64,000 bases of DNA from Candidatus Poseidoniaceae archaeon (GCA_943789275.1 CALSTM010000003.1:160489-224488), one strand, 5' to 3'; counted from the stretch's first letter, positions 28,580 to 36,174 are shown. Numbers and translations: made by a program. Notes: a model not told the origin generated them from the letters alone.

Positions 28580-29503
28580 TCAGACTTTCAGATTTGCTTG
28601 GCGAGCGAGTAATACGATTCTCATGCTGTGCTCAAGCATGGCCGCATTTGACCACGCTTGGTCGAGATTGGCTCCAACCGCATAGGCTCCCATTCCCCGA
28701 ACAACAACACAGCGCATGCCACCTTGATACAATGCTTCAGTAATTTGCTTCAGGAAGTCTGCAGGGTCTCCATCATCAGGGTCAACGATGATTACGTTAC
28801 CAATTTGCTCTTTTCCAAGAACATCGATTGGCTGAACTAAGACGAGATCTTTCTCACAACTTGCTGCGGTGGTGTATGGGCCGTGCGAGTGGATTACCGC
28901 TGCAGGGCCGCCAGTTACAGCGCTGCTTGCCAGTGCTAGAATGACTTCCAATGTCCTCCAATCTGCTGGTGCACCTCGGGGCGCCGCTTTTCCAAGGAAC
29001 CCCGCACACAAACCTCGCTCATCAAGCCGCGGTAACATTACCCTGTTTCGAGTCGACACCATGATGCCCAGATTATCTGGATGCAACATGGCGATAGTGC
29101 CCATGGTGGCTCGAATGAGTTGTTCTCTGTCGAGTTGTCGAGCGAGACGGGCAAAGTCACTTACTATGTGAGCGCCGATGACAATGTCTTCGATGACCGC
29201 AGGCGGCATTGGGGGCGTCTCGAGTTCTTCGATAACATCAACCGCTCCAGCCATTGACATTCGTAGCCGTTCGACTTCAGCATTGAGGCGCGCGATCTCC
29301 TGTTCCGCTAGCGCCTGTTGCTCGTCGGTTGGATGAACGTTCATGTCCTGAACAGGTCGTTTTTCAGCAGATTTGACCTCGTCATTGACTGGTGAAACCT
29401 CGTGTTCAGGAATACTTTCGTCTTTCTCCTCCACAACTTCAGCAGGAGGGTTTCCTTCAGGCTCTACTGGGGAGTCGGTAGGTGCTTCATCCGGAGTTGG
29501 CAT
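28580..29503 (-). CDS. class II aldolase/adducin-domain protein (C-terminal portion of a probably longer, frameshifted gene)
   Basis: AVIHSHGPYTTAAS and VVRGMGAYAVGANLDQAW match the class II aldolase metal-binding core. The N-terminal part is an acidic coiled region. The reading frame stays open upstream of ATG 29503 through PSGP repeats until a stop at 29696-29698. Confidence 0.6.
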   Translation of the reverse strand: MPTPDEAPTDSPVEPEGNPPAEVVEEKDESIPEHEVSPVNDEVKSAEKRPVQDMNVHPTDEQQALAEQEIARLNAEVERLRMSMAGAVDVIEELETPPMPPAVIEDIVIGAHIVSDFARLARQLDREQLIRATMGTIAMLHPDNLGIMVSTRNRVMLPRLDERGLCAGFLGKAAPRGAPADWRTLEVILALASSAVTGGPAAVIHSHGPYTTAASCEKDLVLVQPIDVLGKEQIGNVIIVDPDDGDPADFLKQITEALYQGGMRCVVVRGMGAYAVGANLDQAWSNAAMLEHSMRIVLLARQANLKV

Positions 29504-30123
29504 CTCTTCAACGCTCTCCTCAGTCGCTGGTTCAGTGCTTTCCCCGTCTGCTGCAGGCGGCTCAGATGGTGGGCCGGATGGTGGGCCGGATGGTGGACCG
29601 GATGGCGGACCCGATGATGGGCGGGAAGGAGGATCAGAAGGAGGACCGGAAGGCGGACCCGATGGTCGGGACCCGATGGTGGGCCGGAAGGAGGATCAGA
29701 AGGAGGACCGGATGGCGGACCCGATGGTGGAGTGGACGAGGGGGTTGAACTTTCGACCTCTTCATCGACTTGTTCAGATTTTTCATCAGCAGCCTCTTCA
29801 ACGCTTTCCTCAGTCGCTGGTTCAGTGCCTTCTCCGTCAGCTGCAGGCGGCTCAGATGATGGACCGGATGGTGGGCCAGATGGTGGGCCGGATGGTGGAC
29901 CGGATGGTGGCTGTGATGAAGGCCCAGGAGGAGGGCCACTTGGACTCGAAGGGGGTGATTCGAGGGGTGATTCTCCCTCACTTTCTTCTGTTGGGGTGGG
30001 AGCATCTTCTTCGGTTTTCTGCAACCCGCCAAGGTCGCCAAACGCAGCATCGAGTAGATTTCCGACGTGAGCATCTTTTTGTTCTTCTTTTGATTGTTCA
30101 GCAGATGTTTTTTTTCCCGCCAT
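29464..30123 (-). pseudogene. acidic PSGPPSGP-repeat N-terminal segment, apparently the 5' part of the aldolase-domain gene, separated by a frameshift within the repeat
   Basis: ATG 30123 gives MAGKKTSAEQSKEEQKDAHVG..., then (PSGP)n, an acidic spacer and a second (PSGP)n block. The frame is lost near 29665-29695, where the downstream frame (that of the 28580..29503 CDS) becomes open. Confidence 0.4.
29560..29950. repeat. two blocks of imperfect 12-nt tandem repeats (GATGGTGGGCCG and relatives) encoding PSGP on the minus strand
   Basis: Direct inspection shows ggtgggccggatggtgggccggatggtggaccggatggcggacccgatg... repeated at 29565-29720 and again at 29855-29950. Confidence 0.7.
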
Positions 30124-30191
30124 CGATAACGCCCCATACTGGCCACATGGCGCGGCTTAAATAGCGGTTGCGTAACGGAAGTCTTGCATAG

Positions 30192-30325: not shown

Positions 30326-31285
30326 ATGGTCACCAAACCTAAACTTGCAGTCTCGTCGTGTTTACTCGGCCAGAAAGTTCGCTACAATGGAGATGCTGCG
30401 GAGTTCAGAGCACTCACTCGCAAGTGGAACGGACATTTCGAACTTGTTGGCGTCTGCCCTGAAGTCGGAATTGGAATGGGCGTTCCTCGCCCAACGATTC
30501 GCTTGGTAAACGATGGAAATTCCATTCGCCTCGTCAATCCCAAAAACAACGACGACTTCACAGACCGTATGCTGGAATATGCGCAACTTCAAGCCGATGT
30601 TTTGGTCGAATCAGGAATTTGCGGGTTTGTGTTCAAGAAGGATTCACCAAGCTGTGGCCTTGAACGGGTGAAAGTCTACCGAGAAGGCCACGTTCACGCT
30701 ACACGCGACGGCAGAGGCATGTTTGCCAAAGTATTCACAACACTCTACCCGCACATCCCAGTTATCGAAGAAGGCCGCCTTACCGATGCACGGCAGGCTG
30801 AACATTACTTAGCACGCGTTCATTTCTTTTCACTGTGGCGAGAAGAAGGCTTGAACGGGTGGACTGCTCAAGCACTGATGCAGTTTCACAACACGAACAA
30901 ACTCTTCCTCCTCAGCCGTTCCCCTGATGCAAAACGGCGTCTTGGCCGCCTTATTGCTGAAGGATTTGACAACGGAGACCGTGCAGAAACTGTTGCTTTG
31001 GCCTACATGACAGAGGCGCAACAATCCCTGAATGTACTCACGAAAAGTGGCCCAATTGCCCATGCGATGGAGCGCGTGCTGGGTAAGATTTCTCACAATC
31101 TTACCAAAGGCGAAAGGCAAGAAATGCTTGATGTGATCCATGATTTCCGACAGGGATTACTTCCACGCTCAGCCCCGTTAACCCTACTGCAGCACCACGT
31201 ACGCAGGTGCAACCTCGACACCCCAACGCATCGCCGATTTATGTCACCGATCCCACTTTCGCTCGGTCTGATGGCGAGAGTTTGA
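30326..31285 (+). CDS. DUF523 + DUF1722 two-domain protein (YbgA/TudS-like)
   Basis: N-terminal VSSCLLGQKVRYNG...GVCPEVGIGMGVPRP resembles the DUF523 Cys-ligand core. The C-terminal helical half matches DUF1722-type architecture. Confidence 0.55.
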   Translation: MVTKPKLAVSSCLLGQKVRYNGDAAEFRALTRKWNGHFELVGVCPEVGIGMGVPRPTIRLVNDGNSIRLVNPKNNDDFTDRMLEYAQLQADVLVESGICGFVFKKDSPSCGLERVKVYREGHVHATRDGRGMFAKVFTTLYPHIPVIEEGRLTDARQAEHYLARVHFFSLWREEGLNGWTAQALMQFHNTNKLFLLSRSPDAKRRLGRLIAEGFDNGDRAETVALAYMTEAQQSLNVLTKSGPIAHAMERVLGKISHNLTKGERQEMLDVIHDFRQGLLPRSAPLTLLQHHVRRCNLDTPTHRRFMSPIPLSLGLMARV

Positions 31286-31289
31286 CGGC

Positions 31290-32711
31290 TCATTGATTTT
31301 TACGCTGTGAACGATACTCTTCGAGTGCCTTTGCACGCATTCCTTCAAGGATTCCAACACTGTCCGTGATATCCGAAACAGTGATGTTGATGACCCAAAG
31401 TCCATAGTTGTGTAATCCGCTGTTGATTTCATGGATTAATCCTTGATAAAACCACTCTTGCGAGCGGTTGATGTCCTTAATGGTCATTGAGCGTATAGCC
31501 TTGGGGAATCTCTCTTCAATGATGGCACGAGTTCTTGCTTCAATCTCAGCCTCCGACAGACCGTTTAATTCTCGAGCGGCCGTATCCGATAGCGGGGGCT
31601 CTTCTCCCACGCCGACAACCAACCTCACGGGAATCGTCAACGGAACACTTTCCTTTTCCGGGATATCTTGAAAGTTGAAGTTGAGCGTCATTGGCTCGAT
31701 GACACTCGGTGGGTTGGAATTACGCGTTAGTTCAAGAATTTTAATTTGGCAGGCGACAGCTCTTGCACCAACCTCTTTCAACTCCATACTCGCACCTGCT
31801 GCGAAGGCTTGAAAATTACGCCAGACAGGACGATCGAAACCTTCCCGCTCCGGGTCTTTGATATGTTCATAAACAAGCCATGTGAGAGTTTGCTCAATAC
31901 CTTTTTTCAAGTATATTTTCATCAAGTTGGCATATTCGTCATCCGATAAAGTCCGAAGATAGCGATAACGAGGGCTGGACCACTCCTCAAACGAACCGAT
32001 GACATCTGGATCGGATTCTATACCGAATCGAGCCTCGTATTTTATCTGTGTGTGGTCTTTTTTCAACGTCCCCTCGCCGGCGACTGATATTTTGATGAGA
32101 CAATCCATGTGACGCTCCATAGGCGCAGCCACCTGTGAACTCGTTTCTTGAACGGCATGGTTCTCTTCGATTGTTGGAGAAAGGTTGAGGATTTGGAATC
32201 TGAGCAATTTCAACCCATTCTCCTGCAATTCATGGCGGCAGCAGTTGTTGAGATGGTCCATAAAAAGGCCAGGCCTATGCTGATATGTGCCAGCATATCT
32301 TGGAGATTGTATGGTTTGTTGAACGCCCCGCATGAGGGTCCCACGGACATCCTCTTCCAATCGACGCTGACGAAGTTCAACCAATTTAAACAACATGTCC
32401 GGTGTGAAGTTTTGGTCATCTGAAAAGTGAATTCCGATGGAGAGGTTTGAGTCGACGAGTTCTCCTGAGTGGGCTTTTGTTCTTGAGCGAAGATTGAACT
32501 CCATCGGCTCAAGTGAAAAAACAGCGTGGCGATGGTACATGGGCAGGAGAAACTTTCGACCGTTTCTGTAGACGATTGGCGTTTGTTCTTCACTGGTCGC
32601 TACGATGAGTATCTGTTGAGGCCCGACTTTCACTGTGAACGAAATCGCCAGCAACCCGATGCCTAACAGCAGCAGAACGCTGAATACGATGGCGACAATC
32701 AACAAGTCCAT
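31290..32711 (-). CDS. SPFH/band-7 (flotillin-like) membrane protein
   Basis: ATG at 32711 (the 32741 start is GTG). N-terminal TM LLIVAIVFSVLLLLGIGLLAI followed by PQQILIVATSEEQTPIVYRNGRKFLLP, an SPFH core. Long coiled-coil, flotillin-like C-terminal half. Confidence 0.6.
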   Translation of the reverse strand: MDLLIVAIVFSVLLLLGIGLLAISFTVKVGPQQILIVATSEEQTPIVYRNGRKFLLPMYHRHAVFSLEPMEFNLRSRTKAHSGELVDSNLSIGIHFSDDQNFTPDMLFKLVELRQRRLEEDVRGTLMRGVQQTIQSPRYAGTYQHRPGLFMDHLNNCCRHELQENGLKLLRFQILNLSPTIEENHAVQETSSQVAAPMERHMDCLIKISVAGEGTLKKDHTQIKYEARFGIESDPDVIGSFEEWSSPRYRYLRTLSDDEYANLMKIYLKKGIEQTLTWLVYEHIKDPEREGFDRPVWRNFQAFAAGASMELKEVGARAVACQIKILELTRNSNPPSVIEPMTLNFNFQDIPEKESVPLTIPVRLVVGVGEEPPLSDTAARELNGLSEAEIEARTRAIIEERFPKAIRSMTIKDINRSQEWFYQGLIHEINSGLHNYGLWVINITVSDITDSVGILEGMRAKALEEYRSQRKNQ

Positions 32712-32817
32712 GCTCTTCTCACACCGGAGTTTCCTTTTCACTTTATCGCGAATACCTCAACTGATTCTGCTTTCTTTATATCCAGTTGAAGATTTACCTT
32801 TACGAGGAGAGATACCC

Positions 32818-33243
32818 ATGAGTGAAAAAACATACACCGTAGAAATTGCAGATGCCACTGGACACAGCGTTGTCGAGATGACCAAGACTGAACTGATAAG
32901 ACAAGCTTCCAACACCAAAGGAAGTTGGGTTTTTGTTGACAACAAGATGGTTGCCGCCGATGAATTGGCGAACACGAATTTTGACGACGCCCAGCACATC
33001 AGAATGGTTCCGGCCCTACAAGCTGGAAAAGACGAGAAAACATACACTGTAGAGATTGCAGATGCCACTGGACACAGCGTTGTCGAGATGACCAAGACGG
33101 ATCTCATCAACCAAGCAACCAGTGCCAAAGGCAGTTGGGTGTTCGTCGACAACAAAATGGTCGCTGCGAATGAACTTGCAGATACAGATTTCGACTCTGC
33201 TCAGCACATCAGAATGGTTCCTGCATTGCAAGCAGGCCAGTGA
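32818..33243 (+). CDS. tandem two-domain protein, each domain about 70 aa with beta-grasp (ThiS/MoaD-like) character, C-termini QAGK / QAGQ
   Basis: ATG 32818 preceded by AGGAGA. Two domains MSEKTYTVEIADATGHSVVEMTKTELI...HIRMVPALQAGK and DEKTYTVEIADATGHSVVEMTKTDLI...HIRMVPALQAGQ. The ORF-track 202-aa version starts far upstream in low-complexity sequence. Confidence 0.5.
   Translation: MSEKTYTVEIADATGHSVVEMTKTELIRQASNTKGSWVFVDNKMVAADELANTNFDDAQHIRMVPALQAGKDEKTYTVEIADATGHSVVEMTKTDLINQATSAKGSWVFVDNKMVAANELADTDFDSAQHIRMVPALQAGQ
32823..33240. repeat. recent tandem duplication, two copies of about 210 bp at roughly 80% nucleotide identity
   Basis: 32823-33030 and 33033-33240 align colinearly (gaaaaaacatacaccgtagaaattgcagatgccactggacacagcgttgtcgagatgaccaag... 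twice). Confidence 0.8.
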
Positions 33244-33327: not shown

Positions 33328-33477
33328 ATGGTTGAACTTGTTGATTACAAATGTGCAGTCTGCGGAAACCTCGAATCCTTCCACCGCGAACGTAACGGAA
33401 TCAGCTGCAAATCTTGCGGCTCTCGCATCTTCATGAAGTTGCGTCGAACCGGTACGAAGCGACTCAAGGCAGAGTGA
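33328..33477 (+). CDS. rpoP: DNA-directed RNA polymerase subunit P (Rpo12/RpoP)
   Basis: 49 aa: MVELVDYKCAVCGNLESFHRERNGISCKSCGSRIFMKLRRTGTKRLKAE. CxxC...CxxCGxRI[FL] zinc ribbon typical of RpoP. GGAG lies 8 nt upstream. Below the ORF-track cutoff. Confidence 0.6.
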   Translation: MVELVDYKCAVCGNLESFHRERNGISCKSCGSRIFMKLRRTGTKRLKAE

Positions 33478-33533: not shown

Positions 33534-34679
33534 ATGTCATCTTGGCTTACTGACAAAGCACCGCTTCTTTTTGAAGAGTTGTTGCTACCAGAGGCCGTCC
33601 GTACCAGCATTACTCGCACATCGCTTCAAGCAAATCCCCCTCATCTCCTTTTTTCAGGTCCATCAGGGGTCGGCAAGACCGCCACTTGGCGCTTGATGGC
33701 GCGTCAAGTTCTTGGCCCAACTTGGGAGGCACGAACTCATATTCTTCAAGCTCGCGACTTGGCGAGAACTTCAGGCGCAATGGGAAAATTCGAAGAATTT
33801 CTACGGCCCGAGGGCAGCGGCTCAGACGATACACTTGCAGGTCGAACCAGCCTTGACGCCTTTGATCACACGTTTTCCGCAACAGCGGCCAACACGCCCC
33901 CTCCTGCCGGAGCCGAATGCGAACACTCTGCCGGACAAAGAGCAGCAGTATCTCGCCTCATCATCATCGAAGATGCGGATTATCTGGGGACAATACGCCA
34001 ATCGTATCTGCGCCGAATGATGGAGGTGAGCAGTGGCAGCGCCCGGTTTATTTTCACCGCCCACACGCCTTCACGCATCATTGAAGCATTGCGCAGCAGA
34101 ACCCAACACATTCGCCTTCCAAAAATCAACCGATCTCTCATTGAATCACGCCTGATGCAAATTGTTCAAGAAGAGAATCTCACTCCCGTTCGCGGCATTA
34201 TTGGAGACATTTCACACGTGTCCTCAGGCAATGTTCGTAAGGCTATTTTCATCATGGAACTCCTTACGCACCGAGACCTTCTTGGTGACAGGAAAAACCT
34301 GCAAAACCTGCTTGCAGCAACATCTCTGCGAGAAGTGCAACACATCTTGGAAGAAGCCTTGCGTAATCGAGTCCACGACTGGCGTTGGGAAAAAGAAGGT
34401 AACAAGAACAAACGCGTCCTCAAGGGTGCAATGGGCGTTTTGGACCAAGTGATGTCAGAGAATAATCTCGAGTCCGAAGATATCGTCGAACAATTTCATT
34501 TGTTGTTGACCGAAGGACGTCTCCATCTTGATGAGAACATTCTTTCTGAGATACTCGTGGCCCTTTCGGCGTGTGATGTCGCGCTCCATCGAAGTATGCA
34601 AGGGCGAATTGAACTGGAACGATTTTTGTTTCAAGTTGCCGACATTGGTCAACGGATGAATGCTGCGAAAGCGTCTTGA
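33534..34679 (+). CDS. AAA+ clamp-loader ATPase, replication factor C small-subunit-like
   Basis: Walker A LLFSGPSGVGKT. Walker B LIIIEDADYL. RFC-box ARFIFTAHTPSRIIEALRSRTQHIRL carries the SRC-type sensor-1 region. A roughly 60-aa insertion sits between Walker A and B. Confidence 0.55.
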   Translation: MSSWLTDKAPLLFEELLLPEAVRTSITRTSLQANPPHLLFSGPSGVGKTATWRLMARQVLGPTWEARTHILQARDLARTSGAMGKFEEFLRPEGSGSDDTLAGRTSLDAFDHTFSATAANTPPPAGAECEHSAGQRAAVSRLIIIEDADYLGTIRQSYLRRMMEVSSGSARFIFTAHTPSRIIEALRSRTQHIRLPKINRSLIESRLMQIVQEENLTPVRGIIGDISHVSSGNVRKAIFIMELLTHRDLLGDRKNLQNLLAATSLREVQHILEEALRNRVHDWRWEKEGNKNKRVLKGAMGVLDQVMSENNLESEDIVEQFHLLLTEGRLHLDENILSEILVALSACDVALHRSMQGRIELERFLFQVADIGQRMNAAKAS

Positions 34680-34701: not shown

Positions 34702-34778
34702 GGGCGTGTAGCACAGCTGGATAATGCGTTGGCCTCCTAAGCCGAAGATCCCGGGTTCAAATCCTGGCACGTCCGCCA
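34702..34778 (+). tRNA. tRNA-Arg (anticodon CCT), CCA encoded
   Basis: Acceptor GGGCGTG/CACGTCC with one G-T pair. Anticodon stem TTGGC/GCCGA with loop CTCCTAA. T-arm CCGGGTTCAAATCCTGG. The 3' end reads GCCA. Confidence 0.6.
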
Positions 34779-34794
34779 AACTGAACTTTGAACA

Positions 34795-36174
34795 TCAATA
34801 GGTGATATGAACCAGTTTGTTGACTCGGTCAGACCCACTCATGATGGCATAGAAATCGTTACCACCGTTTGTTGAAGAGGAGGTGACGTATTGCACACCA
34901 TCGATGATTCCGATTTGCACAACGCTCTGGGACGCTACATCATACGAAACAAACACTTCGACACCCGCCTGCGAATCGTATGCATATCCATAGATGAGGC
35001 CATCGACGAGGTTTATCTCAAATCCACCTGCATTGGATAGGTCTTCATTTGTCGATTGCAACACTGTGGATGTTGTCATTGAATAATCGAGCGTATTGAT
35101 TTTGACCATCGAATAACCACCTCCGCTGTTTCGTACATCGAGATAGTAATGTGCGCCGTCGTATGCAGAAGTACCGGAACCCACCCCTTCGATATCTTCG
35201 ATCTGGGTATGCTTGGTTACCACTGCATCAATTGGGTTGATTGAAACAACATAGATATCAGGGTATGTGATTGTATTTTGTTGCCCTTGTCCTTGCCCTT
35301 GACTTCCGCTGTTTGTATCGTCAGAAGCATAAGCATAGATGATTTCATCCTCATGATTGTATTCCATGCCCCCGACATTATCCAATTCTGGGTGAGCGGA
35401 GAAATCAAACTGCGTCATTGTGTATTGACTCGGGTCTGATACCGTGACATGCACCAGGTAGTCGTTGTTGTTCCCGCGCATGTTGGCAAAATATTCCCCA
35501 TCGGAATAGGTCGTCACAGAGGCGACCGTCTCTATCCCTGCCAATTCAATTAATGAGGTCACTAAGCCATTGGAAGGGTCAATGGAGATGAAGTGTTCCA
35601 CATTTGTAACGCTGTCCCACGCATAGCCGTAGAGAAGATTTGTCGAACAATCGATTTCAATACCCCCGATGTTTGTGAAATCTGGGTTTGCACTGATGTC
35701 AAAAGCAATCATTGTTGAACTGTACGTTCCATCACCCGTTCCGCATTCTGTGGTTCCAGTTCCACTCCCGTCTCCTGGGTCTGTGTCGCCGTTGTCACCT
35801 GGTTCTGTGCCGCCGTTGTCTCCAGAGCCTGAACCACCGTTGTCTTCGGGGGCTGTGCCGCCGTTGTCTTCAGGGTCGGTCACATTTCCTCCGTTTCCAG
35901 AGTTGCCGTCATCTGTGTCTGAGCCATCATCGGTGTTATCGTTACCGTTGCCGGTCCCGTTCACTGGCTCTCCGTTGCTGCCATCATCCGTATTTCCATT
36001 GCCCGTTCCTGTATCGGTTCCTGAACCGCCGTTTGAGCCGTTGATGACTTCATCCGTATCGTCAATTGCCGGGTCCTCTTCGGGAACGGGTTCAACGACG
36101 ATTGGGTCTTCAATACACCCTGCTAAAGATGCTGAAAGCATGAGGAAAACAAGTAGGGCGGTGGGACGAATCAT
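34795..36174 (-). CDS. lipoprotein with long Gly/Asp/Thr/Asn low-complexity linker and repeated beta-propeller-like modules
   Basis: MIRPTALLVFLMLSASLAGC lipobox-like signal. A roughly 130-aa G/N/D/T linker. Repeated ...NIGGIEID...LLYGYAWD / NVGGMEYN...IIYAYASD / NAGGFEIN...LIYGYAYD modules. Confidence 0.55.
   Translation of the reverse strand: MIRPTALLVFLMLSASLAGCIEDPIVVEPVPEEDPAIDDTDEVINGSNGGSGTDTGTGNGNTDDGSNGEPVNGTGNGNDNTDDGSDTDDGNSGNGGNVTDPEDNGGTAPEDNGGSGSGDNGGTEPGDNGDTDPGDGSGTGTTECGTGDGTYSSTMIAFDISANPDFTNIGGIEIDCSTNLLYGYAWDSVTNVEHFISIDPSNGLVTSLIELAGIETVASVTTYSDGEYFANMRGNNNDYLVHVTVSDPSQYTMTQFDFSAHPELDNVGGMEYNHEDEIIYAYASDDTNSGSQGQGQGQQNTITYPDIYVVSINPIDAVVTKHTQIEDIEGVGSGTSAYDGAHYYLDVRNSGGGYSMVKINTLDYSMTTSTVLQSTNEDLSNAGGFEINLVDGLIYGYAYDSQAGVEVFVSYDVASQSVVQIGIIDGVQYVTSSSTNGGNDFYAIMSGSDRVNKLVHITY

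What the first reader, a model, noticed from the sequence alone, without database searches (positions are those of the whole stretch)
32818..33243. Recently tandem-duplicated beta-grasp-like domain protein next to rpoP
The 141-aa protein is two near-identical roughly 70-aa domains. The duplication is also evident at about 80% DNA identity (32823-33030 vs 33033-33240), so it is recent. Each domain has the topology cue of ThiS/MoaD/SAMP-type beta-grasp proteins (...VDNKMVAADELANTNFDDAQHIRMVPALQAG) but ends in AG-K or AG-Q rather than GG. If ubiquitin-like, it would be a non-conjugatable or differently processed di-domain form. It lies between a flotillin gene and rpoP/RFC.
Basis: partly seen in the sequence, partly recalled or inferred. 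Interest (0 to 1): 0.55.

Follow-up and report, generated by a model that had tools for sequence, protein, structure and literature searches.

The report
Tandem ubiquitin-like gene of marine archaea
This gene encodes two ubiquitin-fold units joined head to tail, each ending in a conserved glycine; it is kept (as 2-4 units) across the abundant ocean archaea Poseidoniales, whose genomes also carry a matching small activating enzyme and a trimming protease, so it looks like an undescribed archaeal counterpart of the polyubiquitin gene.

Summary
Window 32818-33243 (+) is a 141-aa ORF made of two 70-aa repeats, 210 nt apart and 79% identical in DNA. It lies between an SPFH/flotillin gene and rpoP plus an RFC-like gene.

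"Recent duplication" is wrong. Synonymous sites between the repeats are saturated (dS about 1.8, dN/dS 0.05), apart from short gene-conversion tracts. The tandem layout is old and conserved across Poseidoniales (Marine Group II archaea), with 2, 3 or 4 repeats.

The family is in no Pfam or NCBIfam model. Every repeat ends in Gly: GG in most lineages, AG in the window's clade. A 0-3-residue cap usually follows the last repeat.

Relatives of the domain are fused to, or encoded next to, a distinct mini ThiF-type E1 followed by a JAMM peptidase. This E1-JAMM operon sits in Poseidoniales chromosomes, and one MAG carries both genes.

Best reading: an E1-activated, JAMM-processed poly-Ubl. Cleavage, conjugation, and the presence of the E1 in this particular genome are not shown.

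The parts
32818..33243 (+). di-Ubl gene: 141 aa made of two ubiquitin-fold units and one cap residue (Q), then the stop codon
   Evidence: ORF and translation. There are 46 close homologues, all from marine metagenomes or Poseidoniales. dN/dS between repeats is 0.05. The AF2 model has two beta-grasp domains.
32818..33027 (+). repeat 1 (residues 1-70), ending ...MVPALQAG. The junction to repeat 2 is AG|KDEK.
   Evidence: Alignment of the repeats. The single-domain AF2 model has pLDDT 83 with strands 5-12, 15-22, 37-40, 43-45 and 61-64, helices 23-32 and 47-50, and a free tail 65-70. G70 is invariant in orthologues.
33028..33237 (+). repeat 2 (residues 71-140), ending ...MVPALQAG. It is followed by the single cap codon Q (33238-33240).
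   Evidence: G140 is invariant.
32845..32888 (+). 44-nt tract identical to 33055-33098 in repeat 2. It is the footprint of gene conversion in the 5' third of the repeats.
   Evidence: This is the longest identical run. dS is 0.36 in the first 66 nt and saturated elsewhere. In L009 both repeats share species-specific synonymous variants in this tract.
32775..32781 (+). TTTATAT, a TATA-box-like element 37 nt upstream of the ATG, with GAGGAG at 32804-32809. This is a possible archaeal promoter and ribosome-binding site.
   Evidence: Read directly from the sequence. It was not tested.
33328..33477 (+). rpoP (RNA polymerase subunit P/Rpb12-type zinc ribbon), the conserved downstream neighbour
   Evidence: PF03604, E 2.3e-6, 27.6 bits against a cut-off of 24. 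It is adjacent in at least 61 of 78 Poseidoniales loci.
33534..34679 (+). RFC-small-subunit-like AAA+ clamp-loader gene, the conserved second downstream neighbour
   Evidence: AAA, RFC lid and Rep_fac_C hits. NCBIfam RFC small subunit 2 gives E 3e-38, below its cut-off. It lies downstream on the same strand in 74 of 78 loci.
31290..32741 (-). SPFH/Band 7 (flotillin-like) membrane protein, a divergently oriented upstream neighbour. It is not conserved next to the Ubl gene in most relatives.
   Evidence: PF01145, E 1.2e-14. It lies upstream in only 11 of the loci that extend far enough.

Best explanation
The gene encodes a poly-Ubl: two ubiquitin-fold units of a previously unannotated family that is conserved in Poseidoniales as 2-4 head-to-tail units.

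Proposed mechanism:
1. A JAMM/MPN+ metallopeptidase cuts after the terminal Gly of each unit (...PALQAG|K and ...PALQAG|Q here; ...LVGG|x in most relatives). This frees a C-terminal glycine.
2. A dedicated 210-220-aa ThiF-type E1 adenylates that glycine. It may also carry it on its conserved Cys.
3. The activated unit is passed on, most likely to lysines of target proteins without a separate E2, as in archaeal SAMPylation.

The E1 and the JAMM are encoded together at another chromosomal locus. The poly-Ubl gene itself is kept next to rpoP and an RFC-like gene.

Shown: the fold prediction, the invariant terminal Gly, the tandem architecture and its concerted evolution, the repeated physical linkage of this Ubl family with this E1 clade and JAMM, and the presence of both in Poseidoniales.

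Inferred: cleavage at the internal junction, adenylation, the nature of the acceptor, and the presence of the E1-JAMM pair in the window's own genome.
For: Fold:
- The two-domain model (pLDDT 74) and the single-domain model (pLDDT 83) both give the ubiquitin strand/helix order with a disordered tail.
- Foldseek top hits for the two-domain model are ISG15, linear di-Ub and the OASL di-Ubl, with probability 0.97-1.0.

Sequence:
- The family profile against 177,635 PDB sequences hits almost only ubiquitin and polyubiquitin entries (23 of 27 hits at E <= 10; the other four are short partial matches to unrelated proteins). The ubiquitin alignments end exactly at GG.

C-terminus:
- Over 192 family proteins the repeat ends are GG (126), AG (57) or YG/FG/SG (4).
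- The tail after the last repeat is 0-3 aa in 92 cases and exactly 0 in 14.
- Internal repeats keep P-x-L-x-[GA]-G even where the two repeats are only 35-47% identical.

Polyubiquitin-like behaviour:
- Species representatives carry 2, 3 or 4 repeats.
- Evolution is concerted.

Partner enzymes:
- Ubl-Ubl-E1 fusions P0053, P0084 and P0193 match ThiF at up to 3.6e-17.
- In L081 a diUbl-E1 gene overlaps the start of a protein with the motif E...HTHx7SxTD.
- L085-87 carry Ubl, E1 and JAMM as consecutive overlapping genes.
- Four viral contigs have a single Ubl and a same-clade E1 about 3 kb apart.
- The E1-JAMM-78-aa operon sits in 1-2-Mb Poseidoniales contigs. NCBI members are named Ca. Poseidoniales, Poseidonia and Poseidoniaceae.
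- At least 120 E1 clusters score 288 bits or more.
- One MAG (CBFIDD01) carries a tri-Ubl on contig 4 and the E1-JAMM operon on contig 3.
Against: - No E1 or JAMM lies in the 64-kb window, or within 10 kb of the Ubl gene in any of 78 Poseidoniales loci.
- Co-occurrence in the same genome was shown only for a GG-type species, not for the AG clade of the window.
- The window protein has AG, not GG. Nothing here shows that AG is accepted by the E1 or the JAMM.
- No E2 or E3 was found.
- Repeats are separated by 2-6-residue linkers, unlike polyubiquitin.
- The ubiquitin sequence match is weak for a single ubiquitin (E 0.35-1). It becomes significant only by summing over polyubiquitin repeats.
- The Ubl domains fused to the N-terminus of the E1 could be structural rather than substrates.
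Confidence: 0.6

Rival explanations
1. Uncleaved multi-domain modifier of the ISG15, FAT10 or bacterial Bil/Bub Ubl2-3 type. The two beta-grasp units stay in one polypeptide. Only the cap after the last Gly is removed, and only the last Gly is activated and conjugated.
For: - The best structural matches of the whole protein are ISG15, linear di-Ub and the OASL di-Ubl.
- Repeats are joined by 2-6-residue linkers rather than abutting directly.
Against: - The internal repeat keeps the full P-x-L-x-[GA]-G tail, with an invariant Gly, in every one of about 100 internal units. This holds even in lineages where the repeats are only 35-47% identical, so gene conversion cannot explain it.
- In the E1 fusions the GG abuts the Rossmann domain, so it can be activated only after cleavage.
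- Copy number varies from 2 to 4 without other change.
Confidence: 0.2
2. Sulfur-carrier protein of the ThiS, MoaD, CysO or QbsE type. The JAMM trims the cap, the E1 adenylates the Gly, and a thiocarboxylate is formed for a biosynthetic or tRNA-thiolation reaction.
For: - A Ubl + E1 + JAB triad with residues after GG removed by the JAB is the layout known for the CysO/Mec+ and QbsE/QbsD sulfur carriers (established knowledge; PMC1779556).
- No E2 or E3 was found.
- The E1 keeps two conserved Cys, in DLRC and SCQ.
Against: - Only 1 of 51 members gives a ThiS Pfam hit (E 0.029) and none gives a MoaD hit. The profile finds no ThiS, MoaD, SAMP or Urm1 entry among PDB sequences.
- The E1 has no rhodanese domain.
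- No sulfur-acceptor enzyme (ThiG, MoaE, CysM, TtuA/NcsA) or sulfurtransferase appears in any E1-JAMM or Ubl locus examined.
- Tandem multi-copy genes fit a consumed modifier better than a recycled carrier. This last point is inference.
Confidence: 0.13
3. Non-conjugated adaptor. In the window's AG clade the protein has lost activation. It acts as a di-UBL scaffold that binds partners, for example the products of its conserved neighbours rpoP and the RFC-like gene, or the proteasome.
For: - The tail changed from GG to AG and from PGLVGG to PALQAG in the whole clade.
- Synteny with rpoP and the RFC-like gene is conserved in about 74 of 78 loci.
- No E1 or JAMM was shown in a genome of this clade.
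Against: - The tail PALQAG is itself invariant in both repeats across 20 species representatives, and the terminal Gly is kept. Loss of function would let the disordered tail drift.
- Single-domain relatives end exactly at ...LQAG or ...VQAG.
- dN/dS is 0.05.
Confidence: 0.07

Closest known systems
Eukaryotic polyubiquitin genes (UBI4/UBB/UBC)
   Same: - Head-to-tail ubiquitin-fold units, each ending in a glycine motif.
- Extra cap residue(s) after the last unit.
- Variable copy number (2-4 here).
- Concerted evolution of the repeats.
- The family profile's only PDB sequence matches are ubiquitin and polyubiquitin.
   Different: - It is not a sequence member of the ubiquitin family, with no PF00240 hit.
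- 2-6-residue linkers separate the units.
- The window has AG instead of GG.
- The presumed processing enzyme is a JAMM metallopeptidase rather than a UCH/USP.
- No E2 or E3 was found.
- The units within one gene can be as different as 35% identity.
Archaeal SAMP / UbaA / HvJAMM1 system (Haloferax) and TtuB-type systems
   Same: - A small beta-grasp protein with a C-terminal Gly.
- A single ThiF-type E1 and a JAMM peptidase.
- No E2 or E3.
- The Ubl gene lies away from its E1 and next to information-processing genes, a trend noted for archaeal Ubls (PMC2948915).
   Different: - No ThiS/MoaD family match.
- The E1 is a much shorter, separate clade. The NCBIfam UbaA model scores 31-36 bits against a cut-off of 450, and the best partial match is PRTRC ThiF.
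- The architecture is tandem multi-unit.
- A conserved N-terminal ADxTGH hairpin is present.
Bacterial polyUbl / Bil and Bub Ubl1-3 proteins (Iyer et al. 2006, PMC1779556; Gong et al. 2024, PMC11601603)
   Same: [quoted passage not shown]
- They are associated with E1 and JAB genes.
- Bacterial Ubl structures (8tyz, 8tyx, 9d5b) appear among the structural hits.
   Different: - Those systems sit in compact operons with an E2 or inactive E2. The evidence for function points to phage defence or remains unknown (PMC11601603 abstract).
- Here no E2 was found.
- The Ubl gene is a lineage-wide core gene in a housekeeping neighbourhood.
- PADLOC has no match for the Ubl or the JAMM, and only weak E1 matches.
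ISG15 / FAT10 / OASL di-Ubl proteins
   Same: They have two ubiquitin folds in one chain, and they are the top Foldseek hits.
   Different: - In those proteins only the last domain carries the conjugation tail (established knowledge).
- Here every unit does.
- There is no sequence relationship (8-14% identity in the structural alignments).

Membership tests
Ubiquitin-like beta-grasp modifiers (conjugatable Ubl class) | beta-grasp fold with the order beta-beta-alpha-beta-beta-(3-10)-beta | tested here: met
Ubiquitin-like beta-grasp modifiers (conjugatable Ubl class) | flexible C-terminal tail ending in Gly (usually GG), exposed directly or after removal of a few residues | tested here: met
   The terminal Gly is invariant (G70 and G140). 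Across the family the ends are GG 126, AG 57 and YG/FG/SG 4, and tails of 0-3 aa predominate. The window itself has AG. Tail pLDDT is below 50.
Ubiquitin-like beta-grasp modifiers (conjugatable Ubl class) | a cognate ThiF/E1-type adenylating enzyme | tested here: inconclusive
   Met for the family: fusions, adjacent genes and the viral pairing, plus one Poseidonia MAG with both genes. Not shown for the window's genome: none in the window.
Ubiquitin-like beta-grasp modifiers (conjugatable Ubl class) | covalent attachment to targets through the C-terminal Gly | not testable with these tools
   This needs biochemistry or metaproteomics.
Ubiquitin family proper (Pfam PF00240) / polyubiquitin | significant sequence match to ubiquitin | tested here: not met
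   No PF00240 hit for the protein or for 51 family members at E <= 1. The profile against a single ubiquitin gives E 0.35-1.6. It reaches 5e-5 only by summing four repeats.
Ubiquitin family proper (Pfam PF00240) / polyubiquitin | head-to-tail units each ending in the glycine motif, a terminal cap residue, variable copy number and concerted evolution | tested here: met
   There are two differences: 2-6-aa linkers, and AG in this clade.
ThiS/MoaD/SAMP sulfur-carrier family | match to the ThiS/MoaD family models, or to solved ThiS, MoaD, SAMP or Urm1 sequences | tested here: not met
   PF02597 is hit by 1 of 51 members, at E 0.029. No such entry appears among the PDB sequence hits at E <= 10.
ThiS/MoaD/SAMP sulfur-carrier family | genomic association with sulfur-acceptor or sulfurtransferase genes, or an E1 with a rhodanese domain | tested here: not met
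   None was seen in any Ubl or E1-JAMM locus. The E1 consists of the adenylation domain only.
JAMM/MPN+ peptidase (the partner, encoded outside the window) | catalytic motif E ... H-x-H-x7-S-x2-D | tested here: met
   All motif residues are conserved in five aligned partners. The Pfam Prok-JAB match is only weak, E 0.065.
Bacterial Bil/Bub or '6E' polyUbl systems | operon with E1, E2 (or inactive E2) and JAB, and a match to the system's models | tested here: not met
   No PADLOC hit for the Ubl or the JAMM. The E1 hits E1-E2 models only over its Rossmann part, and BilD at E 2.7e-4. No E2-like gene was seen in the loci.

The most novel reading that the evidence does not exclude
Poseidoniales use a true polyubiquitin-style precursor. 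A JAMM peptidase cuts the 2-4-unit protein into 70-aa modifiers. A minimal 210-aa E1 then attaches them to proteins without an E2 or E3. The gene's fixed position beside rpoP and a clamp-loader gene would reflect a role in transcription or replication control. This would be an independent, or ancestral, archaeal invention of the poly-Ub gene layout in one of the most abundant archaeal groups of the surface ocean. The AG clade would show co-evolution of the tail with its enzymes.
Probability: 0.35. Interest if true: 0.8.

Novelty: new variant of a known kind. Interest (0 to 1): 0.62.

Why it matters
Ubl + E1 + JAMM triads are known in archaea and bacteria. A lineage-wide core gene that strings 2-4 processable ubiquitin-fold units head to tail, with cap residues, copy-number variation and concerted evolution, was so far a eukaryotic hallmark.

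The family, its mini-E1 and its JAMM are absent from Pfam, NCBIfam and PADLOC. I found no paper describing them in Marine Group II archaea.

Poseidoniales are uncultured but very abundant. That makes the prediction testable now in marine metaproteomes, through free ...LVGG or ...LQAG C-termini and GG/AG-remnant lysines, and with recombinant proteins.

The finding also bears on how polyubiquitin-type gene organisation and E2-independent conjugation evolved.

Tried and rejected
- **Recent duplication:** rejected, because dS is about 1.8 and distant orthologues already have two domains.
- **Shadow ORFs on the minus strand** (32757-33155 and others): these are frame shadows. The plus-strand ORF has conserved homologues and low dN/dS.
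- **Non-coding RNA:** Rfam finds only a tRNA at 34702-34775.
- **Pfam, NCBIfam and PADLOC on the protein:** nothing above cut-off. The best hit is sub-threshold Lambda_tail_I, itself a Ubl domain.
- **E1, JAMM and further Ubl copies in the window and in +-10 kb of 78 Poseidoniales loci:** none found.
- **afdb50 fold search:** unavailable.
- **Same-genome co-occurrence for the AG clade** through NCBI records of E1 clusters P0283 and P0319: no shared assembly prefix was found. GC content did not discriminate.
- **A fourth component:** the Zn-ribbon proteins of 423 aa (L085) and 545 aa (L081) upstream of Ubl/E1 are homologous to each other. Their link to the roughly 300-aa domains fused to Ubls in P0054/P0105 and P0110/P0112 is not significant (hhalign E 0.013 and 0.075; 3e-4 between the two fusion groups). 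None of these occurs in the Poseidoniales loci.

Full report
**1. What is in the sequence**

Window 32818-33243 (+) is an ATG-initiated ORF of 141 codons plus a stop. It consists of two in-frame copies of a 70-codon unit, exactly 210 nt apart.
- At that offset, DNA identity is 80% over 200 nt, against 17-30% at all neighbouring offsets.
- Over codons 2-70 versus 72-140 it is 163/207 = 79%.
- Tandem Repeats Finder reports period 210, 1.9 copies and 82% matches.
- The protein repeats are 87% identical.
- They end ...MVPALQAG-K and ...MVPALQAG-Q.

Neighbours:
- Upstream, divergently oriented: an SPFH/Band 7 membrane protein (31290-32741, PF01145 at 1e-14).
- Downstream on the same strand: an RpoP/Rpb12-type zinc ribbon (33328-33477, PF03604 above its cut-off).
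- Next downstream: an RFC-small-subunit-like AAA+ protein (33534-34679).
- Then a tRNA at 34702-34775.

**2. The duplication is not recent**

Between the two repeats, 25 codons differ synonymously and 10 non-synonymously. This gives dN = 0.09, dS = 1.77 and dN/dS = 0.05. Outside the first 66 nt, dS cannot be estimated because it is saturated.

Orthologues down to 46% identity already have two repeats. In the most divergent ones the two repeats are only 35-47% identical. There, first repeats group with first repeats and second repeats with second repeats.

In the window's clade, by contrast, both repeats group with the first repeats of the sister clade. So one repeat was overwritten at some point.

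Conversion is also patchy and ongoing.
- A 44-nt tract (32845-32888 = 33055-33098) is identical between the repeats.
- In the relative L009, the two repeats share species-specific synonymous variants in the same tract.
- L008 has a separate 39-nt identical tract at the 3' end.

This is an old tandem array. It is kept similar by strong purifying selection and by concerted evolution.

**3. Distribution and architecture**

- A word-indexed search found 46 close relatives. All came from marine metagenomes or Candidatus Poseidoniaceae.
- A scan of one genome per GTDB species found 111 relatives. The best 80 are all Poseidoniales, Poseidoniaceae or Poseidonia MAGs, or MAGs labelled only as Euryarchaeota, Methanobacteriota or Thermoplasmatota. 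They include the MG-II chromosome CM001443.
- Among these 80 loci, about 54 have two free repeats, 21 have three, and one has four. Two are fusions to an E1, and two are irregular, apparently frameshifted.
- Every repeat, internal or terminal, ends in L-[VIQL]-[GA]-G.
- The ending is GG in all lineages except the window's clade. That clade is 20 of the 80 species representatives and has LQAG or LLAG.
- After the last repeat come 1-3 cap residues, very often ending in Cys (RAC, LAC, NHC, LYC).
- rpoP and the RFC-like gene follow the Ubl gene in about 74 of 78 loci.
- The exact window protein is recorded in 189 blocks of the assembly collection, including one contig above 1 Mb. The organism is therefore common.

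**4. Fold**

- With a 23-sequence alignment, AlphaFold2 gave two domains (mean pLDDT 74).
- With a 51-sequence single-domain alignment, it gave pLDDT 83.
- The element order is strand 5-12, strand 15-22, helix 23-32, strand 37-40, strand 43-45, short helix 47-50, strand 61-64, then an unstructured tail. This is the ubiquitin beta-grasp order.
- Foldseek on the two-domain model returns ISG15, linear di-ubiquitin, di-ubiquitin-derived binders and the OASL tandem di-Ubl, with E 1e-5 to 1e-3 and probability 0.97-1.0.

**5. Family**

- A profile search of 1.84 billion representative proteins found at least 150 representatives.
- Together with the first hits, 131 are single-domain, 56 double and 5 triple.
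- Repeat ends are GG (126), AG (57) or YG/FG/SG (4).
- The tail after the last repeat has 0-3 residues in 92 proteins. Fourteen end exactly at the Gly.
- Three single-domain proteins end exactly at ...LQAG or ...VQAG. A QAG carboxy-terminus is therefore a natural mature end in this family.
- Only two columns are invariant family-wide: the Gly of a conserved A-D-x-T-G-H hairpin and the terminal Gly. A Trp in strand 3 is nearly invariant.
- No Pfam, NCBIfam or PADLOC model reaches its cut-off. The best hit is a sub-threshold match to Lambda_tail_I, itself a Ubl domain.
- Against all PDB sequences, the family profile hits almost only ubiquitin and polyubiquitin (23 of 27 hits at E <= 10; the other four are short partial matches to unrelated proteins), with the alignment ending at GG. 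The value is E 5e-5 for tetra-ubiquitin by summed repeats, but only 0.35-1.6 for one ubiquitin. No ThiS, MoaD, SAMP or Urm1 entry appears.

**6. Partner enzymes**

Several relatives of the domain are fused to a ThiF domain.
- P0053 and P0084 match ThiF at 1e-17.
- P0193 is a diUbl-E1 fusion whose NCBI copies are annotated Candidatus Poseidoniaceae.
- In these fusions, the second ...LVGG lies 4-10 residues before the GAGGIGS loop of the E1.

Using the E1 part as a query revealed a separate clade of very small E1s of 201-229 aa.
- At least 120 clusters at 90% identity score 288 bits or more.
- Conserved motifs are GAGGIGS, DxDxVxxxNLxHQ, DLRCxGDG and SCQxxGA.
- The best curated model is PRTRC ThiF, matched only in part and far below its cut-off.
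- Members are annotated Ca. Poseidoniales and Ca. Poseidonia.

Contexts in which the E1 occurs:
- **L081 and L080:** a diUbl-E1 gene overlaps the start of a 207-aa protein.
- **L085-L087:** a single Ubl (...LVGG plus 10 aa), the E1 and a 199-aa protein are consecutive, overlapping genes.
- **1-2-Mb Poseidoniales contigs and several NCBI MAGs:** the order is GT4 glycosyltransferase, E1, a 172-190-aa protein, then a 78-81-aa protein.
- **Four viral contigs:** a single-domain relative and a same-clade E1 lie about 3 kb apart.

The protein after the E1 carries the complete JAMM/MPN+ motif, a Glu followed by HTHx7SxTD, in all five sequences aligned. Its Pfam Prok-JAB match is only weak.

One MAG, CBFIDD01 (Poseidonia sp.), has the tri-Ubl gene on contig 4 (L073) and the E1-JAMM operon on contig 3 (L111).

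No E2- or E3-like gene was recognised. No sulfur-transfer or sulfur-acceptor gene occurs in any of these loci.

**7. Interpretation**

The most economical reading is a Ubl/E1/JAMM system of the archaeal E2-independent kind, in which the modifier is made as a poly-Ubl. Three observations favour cleavage at every unit rather than use of the whole chain.
- The internal tails keep the glycine motif even where gene conversion cannot be responsible.
- The fused forms place the GG directly in front of the E1. It could be activated only after proteolysis.
- Copy number varies freely between 2 and 4.

The window's AG tail is a clade-wide, invariant replacement (PGLVGG to PALQAG in both repeats). That looks like co-evolution with the enzymes rather than decay.

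The following are inferred, not shown: cleavage, adenylation, the acceptor (protein lysine versus sulfur), and the presence of the E1-JAMM operon in the window's own genome. The operon is not in the window. I could not establish same-genome co-occurrence for the AG clade.

**8. Comparison with what is known**

- **Iyer et al. 2006 (PMC1779556):** described bacterial polyUbl proteins with two to three repeats, in operons with JAB-E1 and an inactive E2. They also described Ubl domains fused to ThiF N-termini.
- **Gong et al. [quoted passage not shown]
- **Makarova and Koonin 2010 (PMC2948915):** catalogued archaeal ThiS/MoaD-type Ubls. They noted the association of these genes with information-processing genes and a Ubl-E1 fusion in Thaumarchaeota.
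- **Grau-Bové et al. 2015 (PMC4327156):** mention one MG-II single-cell genome, with a UCH, RING-type E3s and no Ub.
- Full-text searches for Marine Group II or Poseidoniales together with ubiquitin terms found nothing describing this gene.

I therefore rate it a new variant of a known kind. It is an unannotated Ubl family with its own mini-E1 and JAMM, organised like a polyubiquitin gene, and conserved in a globally abundant archaeal order.

**9. Verdict**

- Confidence is about 0.6 that this is an E1-activated, JAMM-processed poly-Ubl.
- The rivals are an uncleaved di-Ubl modifier (0.2), a sulfur carrier (0.13) and a non-conjugated adaptor (0.07).

Noticed in passing
L081 1441-4044; L085 3627-7496: T7-like single-subunit RNA polymerase genes (PF00940, E 2e-55 in L081) lie just upstream of the Ubl-E1-JAMM cassette. 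The contigs look archaeal, with a Taw1/wyosine radical-SAM gene next door in L081. A TFIIB-type zinc-ribbon protein and a homologous pair of Zn-ribbon proteins (423 and 545 aa) lie in between. This may be a mobile element or provirus.
   Followed up: partly
L089-L092, L093-L094, L101-L111, L114-L115 (E1 loci): In Poseidoniales chromosomes, a GT4 glycosyltransferase gene always directly precedes the E1-JAMM-78aa genes on the same strand. This holds across lineages with GC from 0.46 to 0.60. The small 78-81-aa protein is conserved (42% identity, E 3e-13 between two lineages) and has no family match.
   Followed up: partly
L031, L034, L035, L038, L051, L054-L059, L061-L063, L065-L069, L071-L073, L075, L077-L079 (3' end of the Ubl gene): In many orthologues the cap after the last GG is 2-3 residues ending in Cys (RAC, LAC, NHC, LYC, QC, MC, IC). 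The window's clade instead has a single Q or L. The role of this terminal Cys is unexplained.
   Followed up: no
P0054, P0105, P0059; P0110, P0112 (proteins): One or two Ubl units of this family are fused through ...LVGG to C-terminal domains of about 250-320 aa that have no Pfam match. The two groups of domains are at best distantly related (hhalign E 3e-4).
   Followed up: partly
window 32851-32868 and 33061-33078 (residues 12-17 of each repeat): A hairpin motif A-D-x-T-G-H at the strand 1-strand 2 turn is the most conserved part of the family besides the terminal Gly. Its Gly is invariant in 51 diverse domains. Nothing here explains it.
   Followed up: no
window 29373-30164, both strands: Long overlapping ORFs on both strands are rich in PPSG and GGPD repeats. 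This is a low-complexity Pro/Ser/Gly-rich coding region next to a class II aldolase-like gene (28580-29503).
   Followed up: no
window 30326-31285 (+): A 2-thiouracil desulfurase (DUF523) + DUF1722 gene lies upstream of the Ubl gene. It is found upstream in about 32 of the 53 related loci that extend far enough. No functional link to the Ubl was found.
   Followed up: partly
window 34702-34775 (+): A tRNA gene (Rfam 58.6 bits) sits immediately after the RFC-like gene.
   Followed up: no
window 34795-36174 (-): A 459-aa protein with a signal-like N-terminus and a long Gly/Asp/Asn/Thr-rich region. It has no Pfam match at E <= 1.
   Followed up: no
L095-L098 (IMG/VR contigs of 31-168 kb): Viral contigs carry a single-domain relative of this Ubl (33-36% identity) plus a same-clade mini-E1 about 3 kb downstream. 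No JAMM was detected with the profile used.
   Followed up: partly
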